Shown: one piece after another, positions 26,790 to 58,634 of the stretch
How the letters are laid out: every line of letters begins with the position of its first letter
Numbering within the stretch: position 1 is the stretch's first letter
Source: Escherichia phage vB_EcoD-Elw
Direction: 5' to 3' (one strand)
Length of the DNA stretch: 64,000 nucleotides
Sequence record: OR621298
The notes under the pieces: generated by a model
The model's database searches: none
What the model was told of the DNA's origin: nothing
The model's input: the letters and a program-made list of their open reading frames with translations, nothing else
Program-made: the position numbers and the translations under genes

Positions 26790-26910
26790 ATTACCTCCAT
26801 TAAGTCTTTTAAATTAACCTAATGTGGATGAATTTTGTTATACATATATTATGTACCTTTATACAGAAAAACCCCAGACTACTTATTCAATAGCTGGGGT
26901 TTGTTATTAA

Positions 26911-27225
26911 TTACAGATCGGGGCGTTCATCTTCGAAACAGCCTGAGCTAATTCCTTCTCCGAATCCTACAAAGCCATCAAATTCATCATTTGAGATGCC
27001 CATAATCATTGCTTCCATTTTCCTAACCTCCGAAATTTTCATGCCTGCTTTACTATTCTTATAATATTTGCGAGGGTTCCCGCACATCCAACAAGAACAG
27101 ATGCAAGGAGTAGTAGTGATAATACCTAACCGCTTAGGGCTTTCTTCATGTGGGAAGACTGTCCAATACTTCTTGCGGTTGTTCTTCACACGTTGCCGGT
27201 GATGGCGTCTTAATGCTCGATCCAC
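26911..27225 (-). CDS. Cys-rich basic protein
   Basis: 104-aa ORF with CICSCWMCG cluster. Confidence 0.45.
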   Translation of the reverse strand: MDRALRRHHRQRVKNNRKKYWTVFPHEESPKRLGIITTTPCICSCWMCGNPRKYYKNSKAGMKISEVRKMEAMIMGISNDEFDGFVGFGEGISSGCFEDERPDL

Positions 27226-27306: not shown

Positions 27307-27675
27307 TTACATCGCCTGAGTAAATGTACGACTAATAACGTCGTTCTGTTGTTCACGAGTCAGTGCATTAAATCGAACAGCGTAGCCAGAGACACGGATG
27401 GTCAACTGAGGATATTTTTCAGGATGTTTCTGCGCATCCAAAAGCTGATCACGGCTTAACACATTGACATTTAGGTGCTGACCACCTTCGATTTGAGGGG
27501 CGACTTCCACCTTAACTTCACGGAAGGCTTCGGGATCGAATTGTGGTGTGATACCTTCTAGATCTTCAACTAGAACTTTCTGTTTAAGTTCACCATTGTC
27601 GGAGTATAGCTGAATAATCTGGTTTTCATGAACAAGGTTAATTACGCCAGACTTAAGATTTTGATATGCTTTCAT
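27307..27675 (-). CDS. grcA: GrcA/YfiD-like autonomous glycyl-radical cofactor
   Basis: 122-aa ORF; C-terminal [11 protein letters not shown]...[36 protein letters not shown] matches the glycyl-radical domain of E. coli GrcA as I recall it. Confidence 0.75.
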
Positions 27676-27717
27676 TAGATCTCCCTGATGTTAGAATTTG
27701 GCTCAGCTCTTTATTGT

Positions 27718-27912
27718 CTATAGTTTACCACGATATACAGAAACTGTCTTACCAGTTTGGTTCATAACGTATGCTACTTCATCTTCTTTTAAGAAGATTG
27801 CTTGATCTATTCCAGAAATAGCTATGCTTTTATTTCTGGGATTAAACCCTACGCTTTTACCAACATGAATCTGCTCACCACCATCAGTGGACATTATTTT
27901 AACTGTTAACAT
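27718..27912 (-). CDS. hypothetical protein
   Basis: 64-aa ORF. Confidence 0.4.
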   Translation of the reverse strand: MLTVKIMSTDGGEQIHVGKSVGFNPRNKSIAISGIDQAIFLKEDEVAYVMNQTGKTVSVYRGKL

Positions 27913-28504: not shown

Positions 28505-28578
28505 TTGGTTTCCCTCTCATTAATTTATATAGATAGTATAACAAGAAATAAGAGAGAAGGCAAATGAATTTTTAAATT

Positions 28579-29588: not shown

Positions 29589-30088
29589 AATTGAAAACTC
29601 GCAGGGTTAGCGAAACCTTCCTCAATTAGCATGTTCTAGAATACTAATCAAGTTATCTCCTATTGCACGCAGCTCAAGACGAGTACGAATTTTCAATTGT
29701 GGTGGCTCTCAGAAACTCTTCTACTCTAGCCTTAGCAGCTTACTCCCGAACGCATGTCGGGGAAGTCTTACTAAGAGCTTCGAATAGCACCGTTACACTT
29801 TGAGCCATAGATGTATCAAGAAGCAGAAGGACTTGAACCTTCACGAGATAGACCATTTATCTCAGCCGCTTTATGAGGTATGTTGCAGGGAGTGGATGTT
29901 CCCTATAAACCTTTTAGGCAGCCCCGTCTACCGATTCCAGCATACTTCAAGAATTTTTATAAACCAGCAGAAGCCTCATTTAAAGCATCAACAATAGCTT
30001 CACGTTGGGTCATTCCATACCCAGTGGAATCTAGGTGTGGCAAATAAGCCATCCATCCCTTATCTGTTTCATGAAGGCATGCTTTAAA

Positions 30089-30107
30089 TTTTTTTTTTTT
30101 TTTTTTT
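30089..30107. repeat. 19-nt poly(T) homopolymer (poly(A) on the coding minus strand)
   Basis: 19 consecutive T read directly; lies inside a short minus-strand ORF that starts at 30143 behind RBS AAGGAA. Confidence 0.9.
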
Positions 30108-30163
30108 ACCGTCCTTCATTGTTACAGTAACTGTTTTGCTCATAATGATTCCTTATAGTTAAT

Positions 30164-30253
30164 TGGAGGAAGGTAATGGAGTCGAACCATCACCGTATCA
30201 CTACAGCGGGCTAGTTTTCAAGACTAGTTGCGTACCACTACGCCCTACCTTCC
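30164..30253 (-). tRNA. tRNA-Ser (TGA), class II
   Basis: 90 nt; acceptor GGAAGGT/ACCTTCC, anticodon arm CTAGT-CTTGAAA-ACTAG, long variable arm, CCA encoded. Confidence 0.6.
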
Positions 30254-30260
30254 ATTTGTT

Positions 30261-30351
30261 TGGCGGAAGAGGAGAGATTTGAACTCTCAAGCCGTTTTAC
30301 CAGTCAGCCACTTTCCAAGCGGTTTTCGTCGCCAATTCGATTTGCTCTTCC
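30261..30351 (-). tRNA. tRNA-Ser (GGA), class II
   Basis: 91 nt; acceptor GGAAGAG/CTCTTCC, T-arm GAGAG-TTCAAAT-CTCTC, long variable arm; anticodon assignment tentative. Confidence 0.45.
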
Positions 30352-30384
30352 AATAATAAGATGATGCCTCTATCACACCAGGCA

Positions 30385-30460
30385 GTTACGCCTCGCTGGG
30401 ATTCGAACCCATTAAAACAGCTCAACCGAGATAGTAGATTTAATTTACTCTGACCATCAA
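30385..30460 (-). other. tRNA-like element with canonical T-arm but no foldable acceptor stem
   Basis: GGGTTCGAATCCC T-arm motif present; no 7-bp acceptor pairing or CCA found by hand. Confidence 0.3.
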
Positions 30461-30463
30461 ATT

Positions 30464-30540
30464 TGGTGCGTGACAAGGGATTCGAACCCTCAAAACCCGA
30501 CTTCTAAGGACGGTATGTATGCCAATTCCATCAATCACGC
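30464..30540 (-). tRNA. tRNA with anticodon TAG (Leu-type anticodon) in a short 77-nt class-I-like body
   Basis: Acceptor GCGTGAT/GTCACGC (one G-U), T-arm GAGGG-TTCGAAT-CCCTT, anticodon loop CTTAGAA, discriminator A, CCA encoded. Confidence 0.45.
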
Positions 30541-30545
30541 GTATT

Positions 30546-30620
30546 TGGTGGACAAAGAGGGACTCGAACCCTCCCTACCAGATTGCAAATCTGGTGTGCT
30601 CCCGCTGACACTATTCGCCC
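30546..30620 (-). tRNA. tRNA-Ala (TGC)
   Basis: Anticodon arm CCAGA-TTTGCAA-TCTGG, T-arm GAGGG-TTCGAGT-CCCTC, acceptor with two G-U pairs, CCA encoded. Confidence 0.6.
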
Positions 30621-30997
30621 AAATTTATTAATCCAGCATGTACTTCTCTATGGCAGTTAGAGCATAATAGTACGCACTTTTTAAGTTCTGCTATTACTAC
30701 TTCTCTGTTTCTACGAGAAGTTCTAAACCTTGCAATGGAGTATTCCTTTTCTTCTGGATTAGTATGGTGGAAATCTAAGGCTTGTTTACACCTATTATAT
30801 CCACAAATACTACATTCTAATACAGGAAATACTTCTTTAATTAATTCTTCATGTCCAGCTACTCGTTCAGCTTTTTCACATGCTTTACATGTTGGCTTCC
30901 ACTTCTTTGTGCCATTAGGAGTAAATCCATTCGAATAAAAATATTCGGTTGTTAACGGATATTCATTCCCACAGGCTCTACATGTTTTTGTACACAC
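30611..30997 (-). CDS. HNH homing endonuclease
   Basis: 128-aa ORF; N-terminal Cys pairs and C-terminal HNH signature (DFHHTNP...CSNCH); 3' end overlaps tRNA-Ala by 10 nt. Confidence 0.7.
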   Translation of the reverse strand: MCTKTCRACGNEYPLTTEYFYSNGFTPNGTKKWKPTCKACEKAERVAGHEELIKEVFPVLECSICGYNRCKQALDFHHTNPEEKEYSIARFRTSRRNREVVIAELKKCVLLCSNCHREVHAGLINLGE

Positions 30998-31357
30998 TGC
31001 GTTAACCCCTGTAAGTTTACTAAGGCTATTAGCTCGGCGTAACTACAGCACCTTCGCTTCGAGCGGAAGGAACTGCGTCATCTCGCAAACCCGATACACT
31101 ATTCAGTTGCCGCTGAATCTAGTGGACTAATCTAGAACTTCTCCCGAATTGTAGGGATCGTGCTTTTTGGCAGCCAGTCCTAGGTCGAGCTAATACCTTA
31201 GTGAACTAAATTGATGGATACCAGACTAATTTTGCTACGACGTTTATCCTGAGGATCTCTTTTTCGGTAGCTCTGCTAGTGTAGACGTCATACACCTGGT
31301 ATCTAGGCAGCTATTTTCGCATCAATTTATATAAATATTATAACAAGAAATTAAGCA

Positions 31358-31720
31358 TTAAGCAAGTACATTTTTAGCGATTTCCTGTAGTTCCTTTACA
31401 TCACGAACGTAAAGGTAATCAGAGCTTCCAGAGTGCATACTTTGCATAACCACACCTTCATCTGGTGCATTATCCTTCAAGGTAATTCCTAGCCAGAACT
31501 CGGCAAAACTAGGTGTTATCTCACCTTGACTTGCCTTGAATACATCATATTCTGTAAGTTCTTGACCAGTAGATAATCCCAAATAGACAGAACTAAGATC
31601 AATCTCTTTATGAGACTCATAAAATTCCGATAGATCTTTTTCCATATCCCAGCCATGCTGCAATGCGAACTCCATTGTCACATGACCGAAATAACCTTGA
31701 ATCTTGTTTGATAATTGCAT
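31358..31720 (-). CDS. hypothetical protein
   Basis: Track ORF 31358..31726 starts at TTG; trimmed to ATG with RBS AAGGA. Confidence 0.45.
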   Translation of the reverse strand: MQLSNKIQGYFGHVTMEFALQHGWDMEKDLSEFYESHKEIDLSSVYLGLSTGQELTEYDVFKASQGEITPSFAEFWLGITLKDNAPDEGVVMQSMHSGSSDYLYVRDVKELQEIAKNVLA

Positions 31721-31745
31721 TTGCAATTCCTTATTTTGAGTTAAT

Positions 31746-31819
31746 TGGTACTCGGTGATAGAATCGAACTATCACAACCGCCGTGTAAAGACGGGGTTCT
31801 CCCATTAAACTAACCGAGC
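31746..31819 (-). tRNA. tRNA-Val (TAC)
   Basis: 74 nt; anticodon arm CCGTC-TTTACAC-GGCGG, T-arm GATAG-TTCGATT-CTATC, CCA encoded. Confidence 0.6.
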
Positions 31820-31823
31820 AATT

Positions 31824-31901
31824 TGGTAGATCGCCTGGGATTCGAACCCAGAACTGACGGATTAAAGGTCCGCTACTCTTATCCAGTTGAGCTAGCGATC
31901 T
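31824..31901 (-). tRNA. tRNA-Lys (TTT)
   Basis: Perfect acceptor AGATCGC/GCGATCT, T-arm CTGGG-TTCGAAT-CCCAG, anticodon loop CCTTTAA (C at position 33 is unusual). Confidence 0.5.
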
Positions 31902-31902
31902 A

Positions 31903-32070
31903 TTAGTAACCATTATATACCTCTTTAATAGAGTGAACTTTCAAGTAAGGGTGATTAGTATTAAACTCTGCCATTACTTCATCCCAATTTTTACCATAAT
32001 GTGCAAGTAAGGATCTTGAGGTATTATTACCTAAACGTTTGTCACTTACTACTAATCGAAATACTTTCAT
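31903..32070 (-). CDS. small protein (55 aa)
   Basis: Not in ORF track; ATG with RBS AGAGGA; translated by hand; fills the gap between tRNA genes. Confidence 0.35.
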   Translation of the reverse strand: MKVFRLVVSDKRLGNNTSRSLLAHYGKNWDEVMAEFNTNHPYLKVHSIKEVYNGY

Positions 32071-32090
32071 TTCGAAATCCTCTATTAAAG

Positions 32091-32167
32091 TGGAAGCGGG
32101 TGCAGGAATCGAACCTACCTCTTTCTAGCTTATGAGACTAGCGATCTCTACCAGAGATCTAACCCGC
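32091..32167 (-). tRNA. tRNA anticodon CAT (Met or Ile-lysidine)
   Basis: Anticodon arm CTAGT-CTCATAA-GCTAG at canonical position; acceptor and T-stem contain mismatches. Confidence 0.45.
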
Positions 32168-32174
32168 AATTGTT

Positions 32175-32252
32175 TGGTCTCCGTGGGAGGATTTGAACCC
32201 CCGACCCTATCGCCCCAAACGAAACGCTCTGGCCAAACTGAGCTACACGGAG
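32175..32252 (-). tRNA. tRNA-Pro (TGG)
   Basis: Acceptor CTCCGTG/CACGGAG, D-stem GCTC/GAGC, anticodon loop TTTGGGG, T-loop TTCAAAT, CCA encoded. Confidence 0.55.
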
Positions 32253-32256
32253 AATA

Positions 32257-32415
32257 TTATTTCTTCAACCACAACAAAGATAAGCCCAGCATACTAAAGC
32301 CGCTAACTAATCCGATACATTTTTCTTCTATAGTAAAAGTATCTAGATTAAATGCTGTTATAGCTATTGGCATACACCATAATGTCATAAAAACTTGAGC
32401 TATCTTGTGTTTCAT
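32257..32415 (-). CDS. small hydrophobic protein (52 aa)
   Basis: Not in ORF track; ATG with RBS GAGAAGGAAAG; sits immediately upstream of tRNA-Pro. Confidence 0.35.
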   Translation of the reverse strand: MKHKIAQVFMTLWCMPIAITAFNLDTFTIEEKCIGLVSGFSMLGLSLLWLKK

Positions 32416-32725
32416 TTTGCTTTCCTTCTCTTCACTTTATAAAATATATTATACAGATAATATAGCAGAATAGCAAATGAATTTTTAATAAATTTACTTA
32501 TTGTGTAGGCCACCTGGAGGCTACCAACCCCACGGCTGACAAAGAAGTTTGCGAGACCTCTCTTAAATGCCAGAATAGACCCGCCGATCTATCGGAACCT
32601 ACATAATAAGTAAACTTTCGTTTACTTACGCCCCGTTAGAGGGACTTTAGCGACTAGAACCGGCCGGAAACTTCATCGCCTTGTTTATTCAGAAGTCCGT
32701 TCTCTAGGGAGCAGAAATCTAAATT

Positions 32726-32800
32726 TGGTGGAGTTTGGGAGACTACGTGTTACTCCCTCTGTCCGAAGTAGGATAGTGCTTAACCGTTTAGCTGAACCCC
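32726..32800 (-). other. tRNA-like element (acceptor- and D-arm-like stems, CCA end, non-canonical T and anticodon arms)
   Basis: Plus-strand AAATTTGG junction as at true tRNA 3' ends; acceptor GGGGTTC/AAACTCC pairs 6 of 7; 5-bp GGGAG/CTCCC stem with 11-nt loop replaces the T-arm. Confidence 0.3.
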
Positions 32801-32979
32801 TTTAAATATTTATACGTTTTATCTAACAACTCTTGTTTAGAGATTATACCATCACGATATTCAGTAATAAAATTATCTATGTTGGAGTCCTTTGATACAA
32901 CGTTATCAGATAGCTCTGTGAATTTATTTGCTAAAAGATCTAATTCTTTGTAATTCACAAAACCTCCAGAATATGCCAT
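32788..32979 (-). CDS. hypothetical protein
   Basis: 63-aa ORF. Confidence 0.4.
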   Translation of the reverse strand: MAYSGGFVNYKELDLLANKFTELSDNVVSKDSNIDNFITEYRDGIISKQELLDKTYKYLKGFS

Positions 32980-33219
32980 TCTAGACAGGACTCGAACCTG
33001 CTATCACTTGTGCGGACTTACGAGAACCATTCTTTCACTCGAATCGAACGAGCTTCTGCCCTAGCCAAGCTGGTTTCCCCATCAACCACGCTAGAATGTT
33101 TGATTGTTTTCAGTGCAAGAGTCCGAGTCTTGGACACGACCGCTTCGCAAGTACATAGGCAGCTTATCATGAGTCAGCACTTCCGAATTGCTAGCTCCGT
33201 GTTCTGCACTGAGATTTTG

Positions 33220-33567
33220 TTAATTTAATAGTAAAGTACGATCTACTTCACCATTAATTGTTCGGCATTCCTCTGGAATTGCTGGTGTAGTCTTATATTC
33301 CCACCATTCAGAACCATCATATTCACCACGTTCTAACCAAGTTCCATCAGTAAACCATACGTTACCATAAAGCAATTGTCCACCGAAACCAGAATCATAT
33401 TTAAAGTCTAGATTATTTAGAAAATCTTCAATATCTTTTTCTGTATAACCTACGGGTAATACCCAAACTTCTTTGTCTCCATAATAACCGAATTCTATCT
33501 TAATACACTTAACTTCAGAATTAGTATTCTTTAGGGCAAGTAACAATTCTTCTTTAGCATTAATCAT
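33220..33567 (-). CDS. hypothetical protein
   Basis: 115-aa ORF. Confidence 0.45.
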   Translation of the reverse strand: MINAKEELLLALKNTNSEVKCIKIEFGYYGDKEVWVLPVGYTEKDIEDFLNNLDFKYDSGFGGQLLYGNVWFTDGTWLERGEYDGSEWWEYKTTPAIPEECRTINGEVDRTLLLN

Positions 33568-33593
33568 AGCATATTTCTCATACTAAATTAATT

Positions 33594-33669
33594 TGGTACA
33601 CCCACTAGGACTTGAACCTAGAACCCTCCGCTTAAGAGGCGGTAGCTCTAACCATTGAGCTATGGGTGT
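33594..33669 (-). tRNA. tRNA-Lys (CTT)
   Basis: 76 nt with canonical numbering: acceptor ACACCCA/TGGGTGT, D-stem GCTC/GAGC, anticodon loop CTCTTAA, T-arm CTAGG-TTCAAGT-CCTAG, CCA. Confidence 0.6.
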
Positions 33670-33675
33670 ATTAAA

Positions 33676-33828
33676 TTACTTTTCCAGTTCATCAGCTATG
33701 GCTTTGATTTTTTCAAAGTTTACATCACTAATAATGATACCTTCCAGTGACAGAGATATTCTAGCATTTTTCATAGCAGATTCTTTTATCTGCTCTATTT
33801 CTTCTGGAGTAAACTCCCTACGTTCCAT
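33676..33828 (-). CDS. small acidic protein (50 aa)
   Basis: Not in ORF track; ATG with RBS AAGGTAGG; between two tRNA genes. Confidence 0.3.
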   Translation of the reverse strand: MERREFTPEEIEQIKESAMKNARISLSLEGIIISDVNFEKIKAIADELEK

Positions 33829-33845
33829 AGCTAACCTACCTTATT

Positions 33846-33922
33846 TGGCGCGACCGATGGGATTTGAACCCACATTCCCTCCCGTGACAGGAGAGTACCA
33901 TTACCAAGCCAGCCCCGGTCGC
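33846..33922 (-). tRNA. tRNA-Asp (GTC)
   Basis: Acceptor GCGACCG/CGGTCGC, anticodon arm CTCTC-CTGTCAC-GGGAG, T-loop TTCAAAT, CCA encoded. Confidence 0.6.
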
Positions 33923-33931
33923 ATAATTCAT

Positions 33932-34117
33932 TTACTCAGCTTTGAGCTTTTCAATAGCTGCATTAAGTTCTTTAAGAAACTCTTTTCGTACATTAAGACG
34001 ATTGAGACTTACTAGTATATCGTGTTTAAGTTCTTCGATGTATTTCTTTTCAACTTCAATATTGTTGATAGTGCTATCACGATGAACTTCTAGCTGCGCA
34101 ATTACATTCTTGGACAT
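33932..34117 (-). CDS. hypothetical coiled-coil protein
   Basis: 61-aa ORF. Confidence 0.4.
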   Translation of the reverse strand: MSKNVIAQLEVHRDSTINNIEVEKKYIEELKHDILVSLNRLNVRKEFLKELNAAIEKLKAE

Positions 34118-34144
34118 GCTTGTTTCCTCAGTTATTAATGAAAA

Positions 34145-34215
34145 TGGTATCTGTGGCTGAATTCGATGTCAGCAATGATAGCTGGTTGGCTACCGGTTTA
34201 CTTAACTCTACACAG
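34145..34215 (-). other. tRNA-like element with 8-nt T-loop and imperfect acceptor
   Basis: 3' ...GATACCA end and GCTGA/TCAGC stem around a CATCGAAT loop; no standard anticodon arm found. Confidence 0.25.
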
Positions 34216-34219
34216 AATT

Positions 34220-34297
34220 TGGCGGTTCCTGCTGGATTCGAACCAGCAAACCTCAACTTAACAAGATGCCGCTCTAACCAATTAGAGCTAAGGAACC
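34220..34297 (-). tRNA. tRNA-Asn (GTT)
   Basis: Perfect acceptor GGTTCCT/AGGAACC, D-stem GCTC/GAGC, T-arm GCTGG-TTCGAAT-CCAGC, anticodon loop TTGTTAA on a weak 3-bp stem. Confidence 0.5.
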
Positions 34298-34792
34298 ATA
34301 TAAGTCAGAACTAGAGTTAATACGTTCTAGATATTTACTAAGATCCCTAGAATTTATACTAAACCACTCATGTTCTTTTAAATCTTTGAAATACTGGTGA
34401 ATTAGTTTTTCACCTTTTCGTTTGTCAAACCAAAACGACCAATGCTCTAATTTATAATCCCTATATGGGGAATAGGTCTGATATTGAGCTAATCTCTCTT
34501 TTGGATTTTGACTCATACCTATTTTATACTGATTTTTCCATGCAGGATTACTAATACAGTATACAAAACCTTCAGAAATAGGAAGTTTATTTTCCTGCTT
34601 AAACTTTATAAAGGAAAGTGCGGCAAGTTTTCTCGAATACATAGTATTCGTATTCTTTTTGGTATTACCATTAGTTCCTGAAAGATTTATATATTCTTCC
34701 ATAAATCTTTGGATTAGTTCTGCGGTTATACAGAAAGGCCCATTAGTAACAACGCCTTTCTTTACCAAACTATCAAAAACTTTTGTATGCAC
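34274..34792 (-). CDS. T5orf172-type GIY-YIG-like domain protein (putative homing endonuclease)
   Basis: 172-aa ORF (GTG start in track); GFVYCISNPAWKNQYKIGMSQNPKERL resembles the GIY-YIG-like T5orf172 domain; 3' end overlaps tRNA-Asn. Confidence 0.6.
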   Translation of the reverse strand: MHTKVFDSLVKKGVVTNGPFCITAELIQRFMEEYINLSGTNGNTKKNTNTMYSRKLAALSFIKFKQENKLPISEGFVYCISNPAWKNQYKIGMSQNPKERLAQYQTYSPYRDYKLEHWSFWFDKRKGEKLIHQYFKDLKEHEWFSINSRDLSKYLERINSSSDLYGSLALIG

Positions 34793-34813
34793 TACTTCTT
34801 TCCTTTAGTAAAT

Positions 34814-54407: not shown

Positions 54408-56282
54408 ATGAATCGTAATGAAGAACTAAAATATAAAGAAATGCAGGCGTTAATTAGAAACTGCAAAGAGATTATCGAAGGGTCAGCGGATGAAGAGCTG
54501 CTGTTTAATAATGCCAATAAACCCTCAGAACGTTTCCCTACACAGAGGGATATGCTTGCAGGTGAATTGAGTAAGTATCTGATTCTAGAAGAAATGCCAA
54601 TTCAGATTCGAAATGCTCATATGATTGGGGATATTCATTTCCATGATGCTGATTATGCTGCATTAGGCATGACTAATTGTTGTCTGGTAGCTCTGGAAGA
54701 TATGTTGAAGAATGGTATGAAGGTTGGTAATGCTGAAATTAGCACTCCAAACTCTATCACTACTGCAGCGGCTATTACTGCTCAGATTATCACTCAAGTT
54801 AGCTCCCATCAGTATGGGGGCACTTCCGTGGATCGCCTTGATGAAGTATTAGCTCCTTATGTTCGTAAATCCTATGACAAAAATCATGCGTTTGCAAAAC
54901 GTTGGACTAAGGATGAAGCCAAAGCATCAGTAATGGCTACGGAGATGACTGAAAAAGAAGTCTATGACGCTTGTCAGGGTTTAGAATATGAAATCAATAC
55001 CATGTTCAACTCTAATGGTCAGAGTCCATTTATTACCTTTGGTTTTGGTCTAGGAACTTCTTGGGAAGCACGTCTAGTACAGAAAGCAATATTGAAAGTA
55101 CGCATGGATGGTTTAGGTATCAATAAACGTACAGCTATCTTCCCGAAACTGGTATTTGTACTTCGTGATGGCGTAAATATGAAACCAGGGGATGTTAGTT
55201 ATGACATCAAGAAGTTAGCTATGAAATGTACTGCTGAACGTATGTATCCAGATTATATCAGCTATGACAAGGTTGTAGAAGTTACTGGAGACTATAAAGT
55301 TTCTATGGGCTGCCGTTCATTCCTAGCTGCTACAGAAGATGGTGAAACTGCTGGTCGTAATAACTTAGGTGTTGTTTCTGTAAACTTGCCTAGAATTGCT
55401 ATCGAAGCTGAAGGAAATATTGATCTATTCTTTGATTTGCTTGAGCTACGTGTGGATACAGCGTTAAAAGCATTGGAGTGGAGAGTTGATCGCTTAAAAT
55501 ACATCCAAGCTAAAGCTGCACCCATCCTCTATATGTCAGGAGCCTTTGGGTTACGCTTGGAGCCTGATGAATATGTATTCGATCATTTCTATAACCGTGC
55601 TTCTGTATCTCTAGGATATATTGGTTGCCATGAAATGCTACAGTTCATGTTTGGCAAAGATGTAGATACAATGTCCGAGACCTGCATCAAGTTTGTTCAG
55701 CGTGTGCTGCAGTACATGCGAGATAGAGTCGATCAGAAGAAGGAGGAGACTAAGTTAGGTTATAGCCTGTATGCTACACCGTCGGAATCCCTATGCGATC
55801 GTTTTTGTCGTCTAGACCGTGAATATTTCCCGGAGCATGAAGATATTCTGTCCAAAGGATACTACACTAACTCTCACCACCTTGATGTGGAACGTAAAGT
55901 TGCTCCCAACGTGAAATTTGATTATGAATCTAACTTTACTCCGATTGCTTCTGGTGGGTGTATTTCCTATGTAGAACTACCGGATATGAAACGATTCCCA
56001 GATGCACTAGAATGGGTTATTAATTATGCTGCTAGTAAAGTTCATTACTTCGGTATTAATACTCCGGTGGATTCTTGTGGTAAATGTGGATTCTTAGGTG
56101 AAACAGTAGCATCCGAAGATGGGTTTAAGTGCCCTATCTGTGGTAATCATGACCCCGAAACTCTTGAAGTAACTCGTCGAGTTTGTGGGTATCTTGGAAA
56201 TCCAGGTGCTCGTCCATTTAACCCAGGCAAACAGCATGAGGTTATGGGCAGAGTGAAACATCAGGATATTCGAGCTAAATAA
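54408..56282 (+). CDS. nrdD: anaerobic ribonucleoside-triphosphate reductase (class III)
   Basis: 624-aa ORF; C-terminal Cys cluster (CGKCG...CPICG) and glycyl-radical motif RVCGYLG; RBS GAAGGAGAG. Confidence 0.85.
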   Translation: MNRNEELKYKEMQALIRNCKEIIEGSADEELLFNNANKPSERFPTQRDMLAGELSKYLILEEMPIQIRNAHMIGDIHFHDADYAALGMTNCCLVALEDMLKNGMKVGNAEISTPNSITTAAAITAQIITQVSSHQYGGTSVDRLDEVLAPYVRKSYDKNHAFAKRWTKDEAKASVMATEMTEKEVYDACQGLEYEINTMFNSNGQSPFITFGFGLGTSWEARLVQKAILKVRMDGLGINKRTAIFPKLVFVLRDGVNMKPGDVSYDIKKLAMKCTAERMYPDYISYDKVVEVTGDYKVSMGCRSFLAATEDGETAGRNNLGVVSVNLPRIAIEAEGNIDLFFDLLELRVDTALKALEWRVDRLKYIQAKAAPILYMSGAFGLRLEPDEYVFDHFYNRASVSLGYIGCHEMLQFMFGKDVDTMSETCIKFVQRVLQYMRDRVDQKKEETKLGYSLYATPSESLCDRFCRLDREYFPEHEDILSKGYYTNSHHLDVERKVAPNVKFDYESNFTPIASGGCISYVELPDMKRFPDALEWVINYAASKVHYFGINTPVDSCGKCGFLGETVASEDGFKCPICGNHDPETLEVTRRVCGYLGNPGARPFNPGKQHEVMGRVKHQDIRAK

Positions 56283-56961: not shown

Positions 56962-57151
56962 GGGTTTAAACTCCGCTTTGGAAAACGCATTAATGCAGCA
57001 CTGGGAAACTGGCTATAAGGATGGTGTTGAATCCTGCGCTACTATGCTAGAAGTTATTGCTAATACCTTAATGGAGAAAGGCAATAAAGAATTAGCTGAG
57101 CTATTAGACAGTATTGGGCAAAACTTCAGAGAACAGGTGAAAAATGCGTAG
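56930..57151 (+). CDS. hypothetical protein
   Basis: 73-aa ORF. Confidence 0.4.
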   Translation: MAFSKPMLPDKGLNSALENALMQHWETGYKDGVESCATMLEVIANTLMEKGNKELAELLDSIGQNFREQVKNA

Positions 57152-57968
57152 ATTAATTATTATTAGCGGTGCAGGTTTGAGTGTTGAAAGTGGTGTACGA
57201 GCTTTTCGTACTGATACTGCTAGTGGTAAAGCACTGTGGGATGATTATGATCTAGAAGAAGTATGTAATATTCATGCCTTTCGTGGTAATTTTTATCATA
57301 AAACCCATATGTTTTACAACAAGCGTCGTGAAGAGCTAAAAACTGTTGAACCTAACCTTGCGCATCTTCGTATTGGTGAGTGGTATAAACAATACCCAGG
57401 TCAAGTAGTAAACTTGACTACCAATGTTGATGACCTTATTGAACGTGCTGGCGTTCCACATAGTGACATTCTGCACATTCACGGATATTTAAAAGAGGTT
57501 GTTGTAGCTGACAGCTACAATAGTAGTAATAAACGAATTATTGATGTTGGGTATAACTCTATTGACCCAGATGATTATAAATGGGTTAAACCTAATGTAA
57601 TCTTCTTTGGTGAGCATGCTCCAGCATATACAGAAATGTACAATGTTTTTGATGGTATTACCAGTCAAGATATGATCATTGTGGTTGGTTGCTCTAACCA
57701 AGTAATTAACTTCTACTGGGAATTATTTCCTGTTCTTAATTTGACTGCTGCCAAATTAATGGTAGTTAACTACTATGATAGTGCCCTAGCGACAGAGCCG
57801 GGCTACCAAGGTATGACTCGTAGTGAGATGTACCAGCTGGAAGAACGCGGTATCCCTTACTGGAGTAAAGGGGCTGTAGATGCCTTCAGTGACCCTGATT
57901 TTATTGCTCGTGTAGAAGCTCATCTAGAGGGTAGACCTTATATGCCGGGGAAACAAATATGTCCATAA
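57144..57968 (+). CDS. Sir2-family NAD-dependent deacylase/ADP-ribosyltransferase-like protein
   Basis: 274-aa ORF; N-terminal GAGLSVESGVRAFR matches the Sir2 NAD-binding motif. Confidence 0.6.
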   Translation: MRRLIIISGAGLSVESGVRAFRTDTASGKALWDDYDLEEVCNIHAFRGNFYHKTHMFYNKRREELKTVEPNLAHLRIGEWYKQYPGQVVNLTTNVDDLIERAGVPHSDILHIHGYLKEVVVADSYNSSNKRIIDVGYNSIDPDDYKWVKPNVIFFGEHAPAYTEMYNVFDGITSQDMIIVVGCSNQVINFYWELFPVLNLTAAKLMVVNYYDSALATEPGYQGMTRSEMYQLEERGIPYWSKGAVDAFSDPDFIARVEAHLEGRPYMPGKQICP

Positions 57969-58141
57969 TTAAATCTGTGTATACACACCCTGATGATATA
58001 TTTGTATGGGCGGACGGTAGTTGGTGTTATCGCTGTGAGTTGTGGGAAATGGACTATAAATCCGATGACTATGGTGTTATATATGTGGATACGGTTGAGT
58101 ATGATACGTTCTTAGAAAGGAACAAAAATGGAAATAAGTAA
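57959..58141 (+). CDS. hypothetical protein
   Basis: 60-aa ORF. Confidence 0.35.
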   Translation: MSIIKSVYTHPDDIFVWADGSWCYRCELWEMDYKSDDYGVIYVDTVEYDTFLERNKNGNK

Positions 58142-58634
58142 TACTCCAATTATTTTTCTAGACATTGATGGGGTGCTCAATTCGAGCATCTCCCACCATC
58201 ATGCACCTGATGATGAAAAGATTTTCTTTGGAAGTGACTGGGTTTTCAAACCACTTCTCAAGGCTTTTCAGGACTTTATTCGTCCTTCTCCGATAATGAT
58301 TGTTGGAGTATCCTCATGGTTCTCTGTCAGGAATGAGATGGAGAACGTTCAGATTATGACCGGATTAGGTCTTATCGATCGTTTTCTTGGTACAACGGAT
58401 TTTACCGGGGGTGGATTATCTAGGGGTAATTCTGTTCTTCGCTTCGTTGAAAAGCATAAGCTCAAACATTGGTGTGTGCTGGATGATGCCGGTGCTATGA
58501 TGTATCAGTATCCAACGGTTATAGTCAATGGTAGAACAGGAATAAATCTTCAGGATTTAAAAGCTGTTAGCTATATGCTAGAATTTAGCCCAGATCTTGA
58601 AATGTGTAAATCCTTACAACAATTTAAGGTGTAA
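58128..58634 (+). CDS. HAD-superfamily hydrolase-like protein
   Basis: 168-aa ORF; motif I FLDIDGVLN at N-terminus. Confidence 0.5.
   Translation: MEISNTPIIFLDIDGVLNSSISHHHAPDDEKIFFGSDWVFKPLLKAFQDFIRPSPIMIVGVSSWFSVRNEMENVQIMTGLGLIDRFLGTTDFTGGGLSRGNSVLRFVEKHKLKHWCVLDDAGAMMYQYPTVIVNGRTGINLQDLKAVSYMLEFSPDLEMCKSLQQFKV

What the first reader, a model, noticed from the sequence alone, without database searches (positions are those of the whole stretch)
27307..27675. Phage-encoded GrcA-like glycyl-radical spare-part protein, ~27 kb from nrdD
The C-terminal half closely matches the glycyl-radical domain of E. coli GrcA/YfiD, including the RVSGYAVRF glycine-radical loop. GrcA rescues oxygen-damaged pyruvate formate-lyase. 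The phage also carries a class III RNR (nrdD) with its own RVCGYLG motif, but no recognisable NrdG activase (CxxxCxxC) appears in this window. The phage may therefore tune host anaerobic glycyl-radical enzymes.
Basis: partly seen in the sequence, partly recalled or inferred. Interest (0 to 1): 0.6.

Follow-up and report, generated by a model that had tools for sequence, protein, structure and literature searches.

The report
T5-type phage copy of GrcA
This is a real, well-conserved phage gene for a small "spare-part" glycyl-radical protein of the GrcA/YfiD kind, but it is ordinary: the T4 homologue was shown to work this way in 2001 and the T5 gene has long been annotated.

Summary
Window 27307..27675 (minus strand) is a 122-aa ORF. 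Its C-terminal 62 residues form a PFL-type glycyl-radical domain with RVSGYAVRF and the radical glycine at Gly97 (Pfam Gly_radical 3.7e-18; PDB GrcA 6owr 1.4e-30; PflB 5e-27). The window is a T5-like phage (Tequintavirus, about 99% identical to FFH_1 here), and the gene is the orthologue of T5.056. It aligns over its full length with T4 Vs.6/Y06I (52% identity). According to Andorfer et al. 2021 (PMC8683613), Wagner et al. 2001 showed that Y06I is activated by host PFL activase and restores oxygen-cleaved pyruvate formate-lyase. Homologues occur in 1585 phage records, many already named "autonomous glycyl radical cofactor". Both halves are under strong purifying selection (dN/dS 0.05 against T5). 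nrdD lies 26.7 kb away, at 54408..56282. No NrdG or PflA homologue exists in the window or in the part of the FFH_1 genome beyond it (record 60-108 kb), so both phage glycyl-radical proteins must rely on host activases. CxxxCxxC motifs do occur in two ORFs, but neither is a radical-SAM protein. Verdict: a correct identification of an already known phage gene family; low novelty.

The parts
27307..27675 (-). grcA-like CDS (orthologue of T5.056; homologue of T4 vs.6/Y06I), 122 aa
   Evidence: ORF list. Pfam Gly_radical 3.7e-18. PHROG 1209 full-length match, 8e-48. PDB 6owr GrcA 1.4e-30. 52% identity to T4 Vs.6 over the full length. dN/dS 0.05 against T5.
27370..27396 (-). Codons for RVSGYAVRF, the glycyl-radical loop. 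The Gly97 codon GGC is at 27385..27387.
   Evidence: Read directly from the sequence. The column is invariant in 40 homologues. It aligns with the GrcA and Pfl[10 protein letters not shown] loop, where the radical glycine is PflB Gly734 (PMC8683613). It lies between two predicted strands (92-95, 98-101) in the AF2 model.
27680..27684 (-). Shine-Dalgarno GGAGA, 4 nt before the ATG
   Evidence: Read from the sequence.
28535..28563 (-). Sigma-70-like promoter (TTGCCT-17-TATACT with a TG extension) at the position of T5 early promoter P11. It is the probable start of the transcription unit ORF57, tRNA-Ile, tRNA-Met, ORF56, grcA, ORF54.
   Evidence: Consensus scan. The T5 annotation places promoter P11 between T5.058 and tRNA-Thr. 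Functional assignment is an inference.
27718..27912 (-). 64-aa ORF upstream in the same unit, function unknown (PHROG 3909). It is absent at this position in T5.
26911..27225 (-). 104-aa ORF (T5.055 homologue) immediately downstream and co-transcribed. It has a basic N-terminus and a CICSCWMC cysteine cluster. It is not a radical-SAM activase.
   Evidence: No Pfam match. PHROG 4499, function unknown. No similarity to NrdG or PflA. Also present in Erwinia and Rhizobium phages.
26864..26899 (-). Rho-independent terminator (CCCCAG...CTGGGG followed by TTTTTCT) ending the unit
   Evidence: Read from the sequence. T5 has an annotated terminator at the equivalent place, after T5.055.
54408..56282 (+). 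nrdD, class III ribonucleotide reductase (context only). It is 54% identical to E. coli NrdD, lacks the first ~110 residues of E. coli NrdD, and has a host-like RRVCGYLG C-terminus.

Best explanation
[quoted passage not shown] It belongs to the same phage lineage as T4 Vs.6/Y06I. It is probably transcribed with the tRNA cluster from a T5 early-region promoter. The proposed mechanism, by analogy with YfiD and Y06I, has four steps. First, when the host pyruvate formate-lyase (PflB) has been cut at its radical glycine by oxygen, the small protein docks onto the cleaved enzyme and its C-terminal domain replaces the lost PflB radical domain. Second, the host activase PflA (radical SAM) then abstracts a hydrogen from Gly97 in the RVSGYAV loop. 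Third, the complex regains pyruvate to acetyl-CoA plus formate activity. Fourth, this keeps fermentative ATP and acetyl-CoA supply running in microaerobic hosts. T5 degrades host DNA early in infection (abstract of bioRxiv 10.64898/2026.04.02.716235), so the host presumably cannot make new PflB or GrcA (inference). The phage carries no activase, so this protein depends on host PflA and the phage NrdD depends on host NrdG. Shown here: identity, domain, radical glycine, full-length homology to the validated T4 protein, purifying selection and absence of an activase gene. Inferred: the operon layout, activation by PflA, docking on cleaved PflB and the benefit to the phage.
For: - The C-terminal 62 aa are 77-79% identical to E. 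coli GrcA, T4 Y06I and the PflB C-terminus, and every GRD residue invariant in 40 homologues is present.
- The strongest PDB sequence hits are GrcA (1.4e-30) and PflB (5e-27). All other glycyl-radical enzymes score 1e-12 or worse, so the domain is PFL-type.
- The AF2 model (pLDDT 73) has the YfiD NMR structure as top Foldseek hit, followed by PFL.
- BLASTP against T4 Vs.6 aligns the full length (52% identity, 5e-39), including the shared N-terminal MKAYQ. PHROG 1209 matches residues 1-122.
- PMC8683613 states that Y06I and YfiD are activated by PFL-AE and restore O2-cleaved PFL, citing Wagner et al. 2001. It also shows that the N-terminal ~60 residues of YfiD matter for binding cleaved PFL.
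- dN/dS against T5.056 is 0.05 overall and 0.10 in the N-terminal half. The C-terminal half has 0 nonsynonymous and 16 synonymous changes.
- The gene is present in about 430 T5-like records at 90% identity or more, and in 1585 phage records in all.
- No NrdG or PflA homologue was found in the window or in FFH_1 record 60-108 kb.
Against: - No experiment exists for the T5-lineage protein. I found no paper in the searchable library that discusses it.
- Its C-terminal domain is more diverged from host GrcA (48/62 identical) than that of T4 Y06I (59/62).
- It scores 121 bits against NCBIfam GrcA TIGR04365, below the curated 170-bit cut-off. The validated T4 Y06I (151 bits) is below it too.
- The N-terminal half, which in YfiD mediates binding to cleaved PFL, is only about 27% identical to E. 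coli GrcA.
Confidence: 0.8

Rival explanations
1. The chemistry is the same, but the main client is another host PFL-type enzyme such as TdcE (2-ketobutyrate formate-lyase), or inactive full-length PflB, rather than O2-cleaved PflB. This reading does not exclude the best explanation.
For: The C-terminal DNA matches a median of three places per E. coli genome, the best of them pflB. From general knowledge the other two are grcA and tdcE, so the radical domain is shared by several host proteins. Some GenBank records name the phage gene '2-ketobutyrate formate-lyase'. The title of Kammel and Sawers 2022, listed, reports that GrcA restores inactive full-length PFL in vivo.
Against: Only PFL rescue has been shown for any GrcA (PMC8683613). 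Nothing in the sequence discriminates between the possible clients.
Confidence: 0.1
2. The protein is a decoy or antagonist. It soaks up host PflA and SAM, or occupies PflB, to shut down host fermentation rather than rescue it.
For: The RVSGYAV loop is the PflA substrate motif, and a decoy would also need to keep it. The diverged N-terminal half could change how activation is regulated.
Against: The T4 homologue rescues rather than inhibits. All core-docking residues of the GRD, not only the loop, are invariant, and the C-terminal half has zero nonsynonymous changes. That fits a working catalytic insert. A lytic phage gains nothing obvious by cutting ATP supply.
Confidence: 0.05
3. The protein is a spare part for the phage's own NrdD after oxygen cleavage. 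This is the link the first reader hinted at.
For: Both genes lie in one genome that lacks an activase. NrdD is also cleaved at its radical glycine by oxygen (general knowledge).
Against: There is no detectable similarity between this protein and the NrdD C-terminal 160 aa (BLASTP E=0.79). Its domain is PFL-type. The two genes are 26.7 kb apart, on opposite strands and in different transcription units.
Confidence: 0.02
4. The ORF is a non-functional captured fragment of the host pflB or grcA 3' end.
For: The best E. coli DNA match is the pflB 3' end, at 78% identity.
Against: dN/dS is 0.05. The ORF has an intact start codon and Shine-Dalgarno sequence. It is conserved over its full length in 1585 phage records across unrelated phage families.
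Confidence: 0.01

Closest known systems
Bacteriophage T4 Vs.6 (Y06I), autonomous glycyl radical cofactor (Wagner et al. 2001, BBRC 285:456, as cited in PMC8683613)
   Same: Both are stand-alone proteins of about 120 aa. They share the N-terminal MKAYQ and align over the full length at 52% identity. Both fall in PHROG 1209. They have the same RVSGYAVRF loop and a PFL-type C-terminal domain. Both are encoded by virulent enterobacterial phages that also carry nrdD.
   Different: The T4 C-terminal domain is nearly identical to host GrcA (59/62), whereas this one is equally distant from GrcA, PflB and T4 (48-49/62). The N-terminal halves are only 37% identical. T4 is known to encode its own NrdG (general knowledge; not checked here), whereas this phage has none. 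The T5-lineage protein has not been tested biochemically.
E. coli GrcA/YfiD (PDB 6owr; NCBIfam TIGR04365; InterPro IPR011140)
   Same: The size and two-part architecture match: a variable N-terminal half followed by a PFL-type glycyl-radical domain. Identity is 74% over residues 51-122. GrcA is the top sequence and fold hit in the PDB. AF2 predicts the same beta-rich N-terminal topology for both proteins.
   Different: The N-terminal half is about 27% identical. The score against the bacterial equivalog model is below its cut-off (121 against 170). The C-terminus ends ...TQAM, resembling PflB (TQSM) rather than GrcA (TESL). The gene is phage-encoded and sits in a tRNA/early operon.
C-terminal glycyl-radical domain of pyruvate formate-lyase PflB (PDB 1h16, residues 698-759)
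   Same: 49 of 62 residues are identical, including the whole radical loop. PflB is also the best DNA-level match in E. coli (78%).
   Different: PflB is a 760-aa enzyme. This protein has no catalytic barrel and no Cys418/Cys419 site, so it can only act as an insert in another protein.

Membership tests
GrcA/YfiD autonomous glycyl radical cofactor (IPR011140 / TIGR04365) | Small stand-alone protein (about 14 kDa) with no catalytic barrel | tested here: met
   The ORF is 122 aa, and Gly_radical is its only Pfam domain.
GrcA/YfiD autonomous glycyl radical cofactor (IPR011140 / TIGR04365) | C-terminal PFL-type glycyl-radical domain with the RVSGYAV loop and the radical glycine | tested here: met
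   RVSGYAVRF is at residues 94-102, with Gly97 aligned to the radical-loop glycine of GrcA and PflB (PflB Gly734 per PMC8683613). PFL and GrcA hits are at least 15 orders of magnitude better than hits to other glycyl-radical enzymes.
GrcA/YfiD autonomous glycyl radical cofactor (IPR011140 / TIGR04365) | Score above the curated NCBIfam equivalog cut-off (170 bits) | tested here: inconclusive
   The protein scores 121 bits, below the cut-off. The experimentally validated T4 Y06I also falls below it (151 bits), while E. coli GrcA scores 234. The cut-off appears tuned to bacterial proteins and does not separate working phage members.
GrcA/YfiD autonomous glycyl radical cofactor (IPR011140 / TIGR04365) | N-terminal ~60-residue region homologous to that of GrcA (needed for binding cleaved PFL, per PMC8683613) | tested here: inconclusive
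   The region aligns without large gaps, and Gln5 is nearly invariant across 40 phage and bacterial members. Identity to E. coli GrcA is only 27%. AF2 gives a similar beta-rich N-terminal half for both proteins, but E. coli YfiD is disordered there by NMR, so the models are weak evidence.
GrcA/YfiD autonomous glycyl radical cofactor (IPR011140 / TIGR04365) | Radical installed by PFL activase, and restoration of activity to O2-cleaved PFL | not testable with these tools
   This needs EPR and enzyme assays. It has been shown only for YfiD and T4 Y06I.
Phage Vs.6/Y06I lineage (PHROG 1209) | Full-length similarity to T4 Vs.6, including the N-terminal half | tested here: met
   PHROG 1209 matches residues 1-122 against profile positions 1-121, E=8e-48. 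BLASTP against T4 Vs.6 gives 52% identity over the full length, E=5e-39.
Glycyl-radical-enzyme activase (NrdG/PflA, radical SAM): presence in the phage | An ORF with CxxxCxxC in a radical-SAM fold | tested here: not met
   In the window, only two ORFs of 100 aa or more carry the motif (26911..27225 and 30611..30997). The first has no Pfam match and the second is an HNH endonuclease. tblastn with E. coli NrdG and PflA gives a best E of 2.8 in the window and in the part of FFH_1 beyond it (record 60-108 kb), and no such motif occurs in ORFs of 80 aa or more in that part.

The most novel reading that the evidence does not exclude
The T5-lineage GrcA is an old, separately evolving branch, equally distant from host GrcA, host PflB and T4 Y06I. 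It sits in a phage with no activase of its own. T5-like phages would then depend on two host radical-SAM activases during microaerobic or anaerobic infection: PflA for this protein and NrdG for NrdD. In that case pflA and nrdG would be conditional host factors. The diverged N-terminal half might also relax the 'only when PFL is cleaved' safety rule described for YfiD.
Probability: 0.25. Interest if true: 0.35.

Novelty: already known. Interest (0 to 1): 0.12.

Why it matters
It matters little as a discovery. The family, its mechanism and its presence in phages have been established since 2001, and the gene is already annotated in T5 and its relatives. Its modest value lies elsewhere. The T5 branch is a core gene in about 430 sequenced T5-like phages of Escherichia and Salmonella, many of them proposed for biocontrol. 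It has never been tested. Together with an activase-less nrdD, it predicts that these phages rely on host PflA and NrdG in the low-oxygen gut, which is easy to test with host knock-outs.

Tried and rejected
1. The 104-aa ORF just downstream (CICSCWMC) as a hidden mini-activase: rejected.
   - It has no Pfam match, and PHROG 4499 has unknown function.
   - It shows no similarity to NrdG or PflA, and 104 aa is too short for a radical-SAM fold.
   - The family also occurs in Erwinia and Rhizobium phages, so it looks like a family with a wider distribution than the T5-likes rather than a GrcA-specific partner; whether those phages carry grcA was not checked.

2. A structured N-terminal domain as a phage-specific novelty: rejected.
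   - AF2 predicts a beta-sheet for residues 1-55 (pLDDT about 80).
   - A control run on an enterobacterial GrcA (P0107) gives the same result (pLDDT 80-86), although E. coli YfiD is disordered there by NMR.
   - The prediction therefore does not discriminate between phage and host proteins.

3. The NCBIfam cut-off as a membership test: uninformative, because the validated T4 Y06I also fails it.

4. Literature on the T5 gene: three searches combining T5 terms with glycyl radical or pyruvate formate-lyase found nothing relevant. PMC6754787 and PMC9112899 are not held.

5. NrdD spare-part idea: no similarity to the NrdD C-terminus.

6. Technical note: loci fetched in parallel were not all written to the Python sandbox. 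I re-fetched the genome remainder singly.

Full report
**1. What is in the sequence**

Window 27307..27675 on the minus strand is a 122-aa ORF. It has an ATG start and a GGAGA Shine-Dalgarno sequence 4 nt upstream. Residues 94-102 read RVSGYAVRF (nt 27370..27396), and the Gly97 codon is at 27385..27387.

The family and structure searches agree:
- Pfam finds one domain, Gly_radical, at 66.4 bits against a cut-off of 22.2.
- The best matches among solved structures are E. coli GrcA/YfiD (6owr, 1.4e-30) and the last 62 residues of pyruvate formate-lyase (1h16 and 1cm5, 5e-27).
- All other glycyl-radical enzymes score 1e-12 or worse, so the domain is specifically PFL-type.

**2. Where the window comes from**

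The region is 99.9% identical to Escherichia phage vB_EcoS_FFH_1 (Tequintavirus, Demerecviridae). It is 95% identical or more to dozens of T5-like Escherichia and Salmonella phages. The tRNA region is mosaic relative to FFH_1.

In phage T5 itself the orthologue is T5.056. It is annotated [quoted passage not shown], which is the glycine-radical domain. Other T5-like records call it "pyruvate formate-lyase", "grcA" or "autonomous glycyl radical cofactor".

**3. Relatives**

A tblastn search finds the protein in 1585 phage records:
- About 430 T5-like records match at 90% identity or more.
- About 1000 T4-like and other large phages match at about 52%.

In T4 the match is gene vs.6, annotated as GrcA in NC_000866. 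The alignment with T4 Vs.6 covers both proteins end to end (52% identity, E=5e-39) and includes a shared N-terminal MKAYQ. PHROG 1209 matches residues 1-122.

T4 Vs.6 is the protein known as Y06I. According to Andorfer et al. 2021 (PMC8683613), Wagner et al. 2001 showed two things about YfiD and Y06I. Both receive a glycyl radical from the PFL activating enzyme, and both restore activity to oxygen-cleaved PFL. They remain the only two validated spare-part proteins. The 2026 review PMC13450708 repeats this.

**4. Fine structure of the similarity**

| Comparison | Identical / aligned residues |
|---|---|
| Window C-terminal half (61-122) vs E. coli GrcA | 48/62 |
| Window C-terminal half vs T4 Y06I | 48/62 |
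| Window C-terminal half vs PflB C-terminus | 49/62 |
| T4 Y06I C-terminal half vs E. coli GrcA | 59/62 |
| Window N-terminal half vs T4 Y06I | 19/51 (37%) |
| Window N-terminal half vs E. coli GrcA | 15/56 (27%) |

The T5 lineage is thus an older, separately diverging branch, whereas the T4 domain is nearly identical to that of host GrcA. In a 40-sequence alignment of phage and bacterial members, 39 columns are invariant. They lie in the C-terminal domain (from residue 63) and include the radical loop, and Gln5 is nearly invariant.

**5. Is it a working gene?**

Against T5.056 there are 32 synonymous and 8 nonsynonymous differences, giving dN/dS 0.05. The ratio is 0.10 in the N-terminal half. 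The C-terminal half has 0 nonsynonymous changes against 16 synonymous ones. Both halves are under strong purifying selection.

**6. Structure**

The AF2 model (mean pLDDT 73) has the helix / beta-hairpin / helix arrangement of a glycyl-radical domain, with Gly97 between the two hairpin strands. Foldseek returns the YfiD NMR structure first, then PFL.

The N-terminal 55 residues are predicted as a beta-sheet with pLDDT about 80. A control run on an enterobacterial GrcA (P0107) gives the same kind of prediction (pLDDT 80-86). However, E. coli YfiD is disordered there by NMR. I therefore draw no phage-specific conclusion from the N-terminal model.

**7. Genomic context**

The gene lies at the downstream end of the minus-strand tRNA cluster, which holds 24 tRNAs. 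By comparison with the T5 annotation (promoter P11, and a terminator after T5.055), the transcription unit is probably:
- a promoter-like site at 28563..28535;
- a 96-aa ORF, tRNA-Ile, tRNA-Met and a 64-aa ORF;
- the grcA-like gene;
- a 104-aa ORF;
- a hairpin terminator at 26899..26864.

This layout, and the early-gene status it implies, is an inference and has not been shown.

**8. nrdD and the missing activase**

nrdD is at 54408..56282 on the plus strand (624 aa, Pfam NRDD 1.9e-171), 26.7 kb away. It is 54% identical to E. coli NrdD. It lacks the first ~110 residues of the E. coli protein. Its C-terminal radical region is almost the same as the host's.

A six-frame scan finds CxxxCxxC in only two ORFs of 100 aa or more:
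- the 104-aa ORF next to grcA (CICSCWMC);
- an HNH endonuclease ORF at 30611..30997.

Neither matches a radical-SAM family. tblastn with E. coli NrdG and PflA gives nothing better than E=2.8 in the window or in the part of the FFH_1 genome beyond it (record 60-108 kb).

It follows by inference that host PflA and host NrdG must activate the two phage glycyl-radical proteins.

**9. Mechanism**

The best-supported mechanism is the YfiD/Y06I one:
- The protein binds oxygen-cleaved host PflB.
- Host PflA installs the radical on Gly97.
- The complex regains PFL activity.

In a T5 infection the host chromosome is degraded early (abstract of bioRxiv 10.64898/2026.04.02.716235). A phage-encoded supply of the spare part would then keep fermentative energy metabolism alive when the host can no longer express its own; this is my inference.

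The rivals are a different PFL-type client such as TdcE, a decoy role, a spare part for NrdD, or a dead gene fragment. All are less likely:
- The protein has no similarity to the NrdD radical domain.
- The T4 homologue rescues PFL rather than inhibiting it.
- Selection on the gene is strong.

**10. Membership and novelty**

The protein meets the structural definition of a GrcA: small, stand-alone, with a PFL-type radical domain and an intact loop. It is a full-length member of the phage Vs.6/Y06I family.

It falls below the NCBIfam GrcA equivalog cut-off (121 against 170 bits). The validated T4 protein does too (151 bits), so that criterion is uninformative for phage members.

I found no paper discussing the T5-lineage gene, so its function is untested. 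The kind of gene, its mechanism and its presence in phages are all established, and public records already carry the annotation. I rate it "already known", with low interest.

Noticed in passing
window 26911..27225 (-): A 104-aa ORF (T5.055 homologue) is co-transcribed just downstream of the grcA-like gene. It has a very basic N-terminus (RRHHRQRVKNNRKK) and a CxCxCxxC cluster (CICSCWMC). It has no Pfam match, and PHROG 4499 has unknown function. Homologues occur in 489 phage records, including Erwinia and Rhizobium phages. It may be a small zinc- or nucleic-acid-binding protein.
   Followed up: partly
window 54408..56282 (+): The phage NrdD is 54% identical to E. coli NrdD but lacks the first ~110 residues of the host protein, which by general knowledge hold its ATP-cone. 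No nrdG accompanies it anywhere in the window or in FFH_1 record 60-108 kb, so it presumably depends on host NrdG.
   Followed up: partly
window 29950..34810: The tRNA-cluster region is mosaic relative to the otherwise 96-99% identical phage FFH_1, with blocks of 87-90% identity and unmatched stretches. It includes an extra 128-aa HNH endonuclease ORF at 30611..30997 that overlaps tRNA-Ala (30546..30620) by 10 nt.
   Followed up: partly
window 57144..57968 and 58128..58634 (+): In the cluster downstream of nrdD, FFH_1 annotates two ORFs as Sir2 (NAD-dependent deacetylase). Of their window counterparts, the 274-aa ORF does look Sir2-like, but the 168-aa ORF does not obviously look like Sir2. 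I did not examine them further.
   Followed up: no
window 27718..27912 (-): A 64-aa ORF (PHROG 3909, function unknown) lies between tRNA-Met and the grcA-like gene. It is absent at this position in T5, where tRNA-Met directly abuts T5.056.
   Followed up: no
P0107, P0100: Some enterobacterial GrcA homologues combine a GrcA-type N-terminal half with a C-terminus ending ...LTKEQQQDVITRTFTQSM, as in PflB. E. coli GrcA ends ...TESL. This hints at gene conversion between grcA and pflB 3' ends in bacteria.
   Followed up: no
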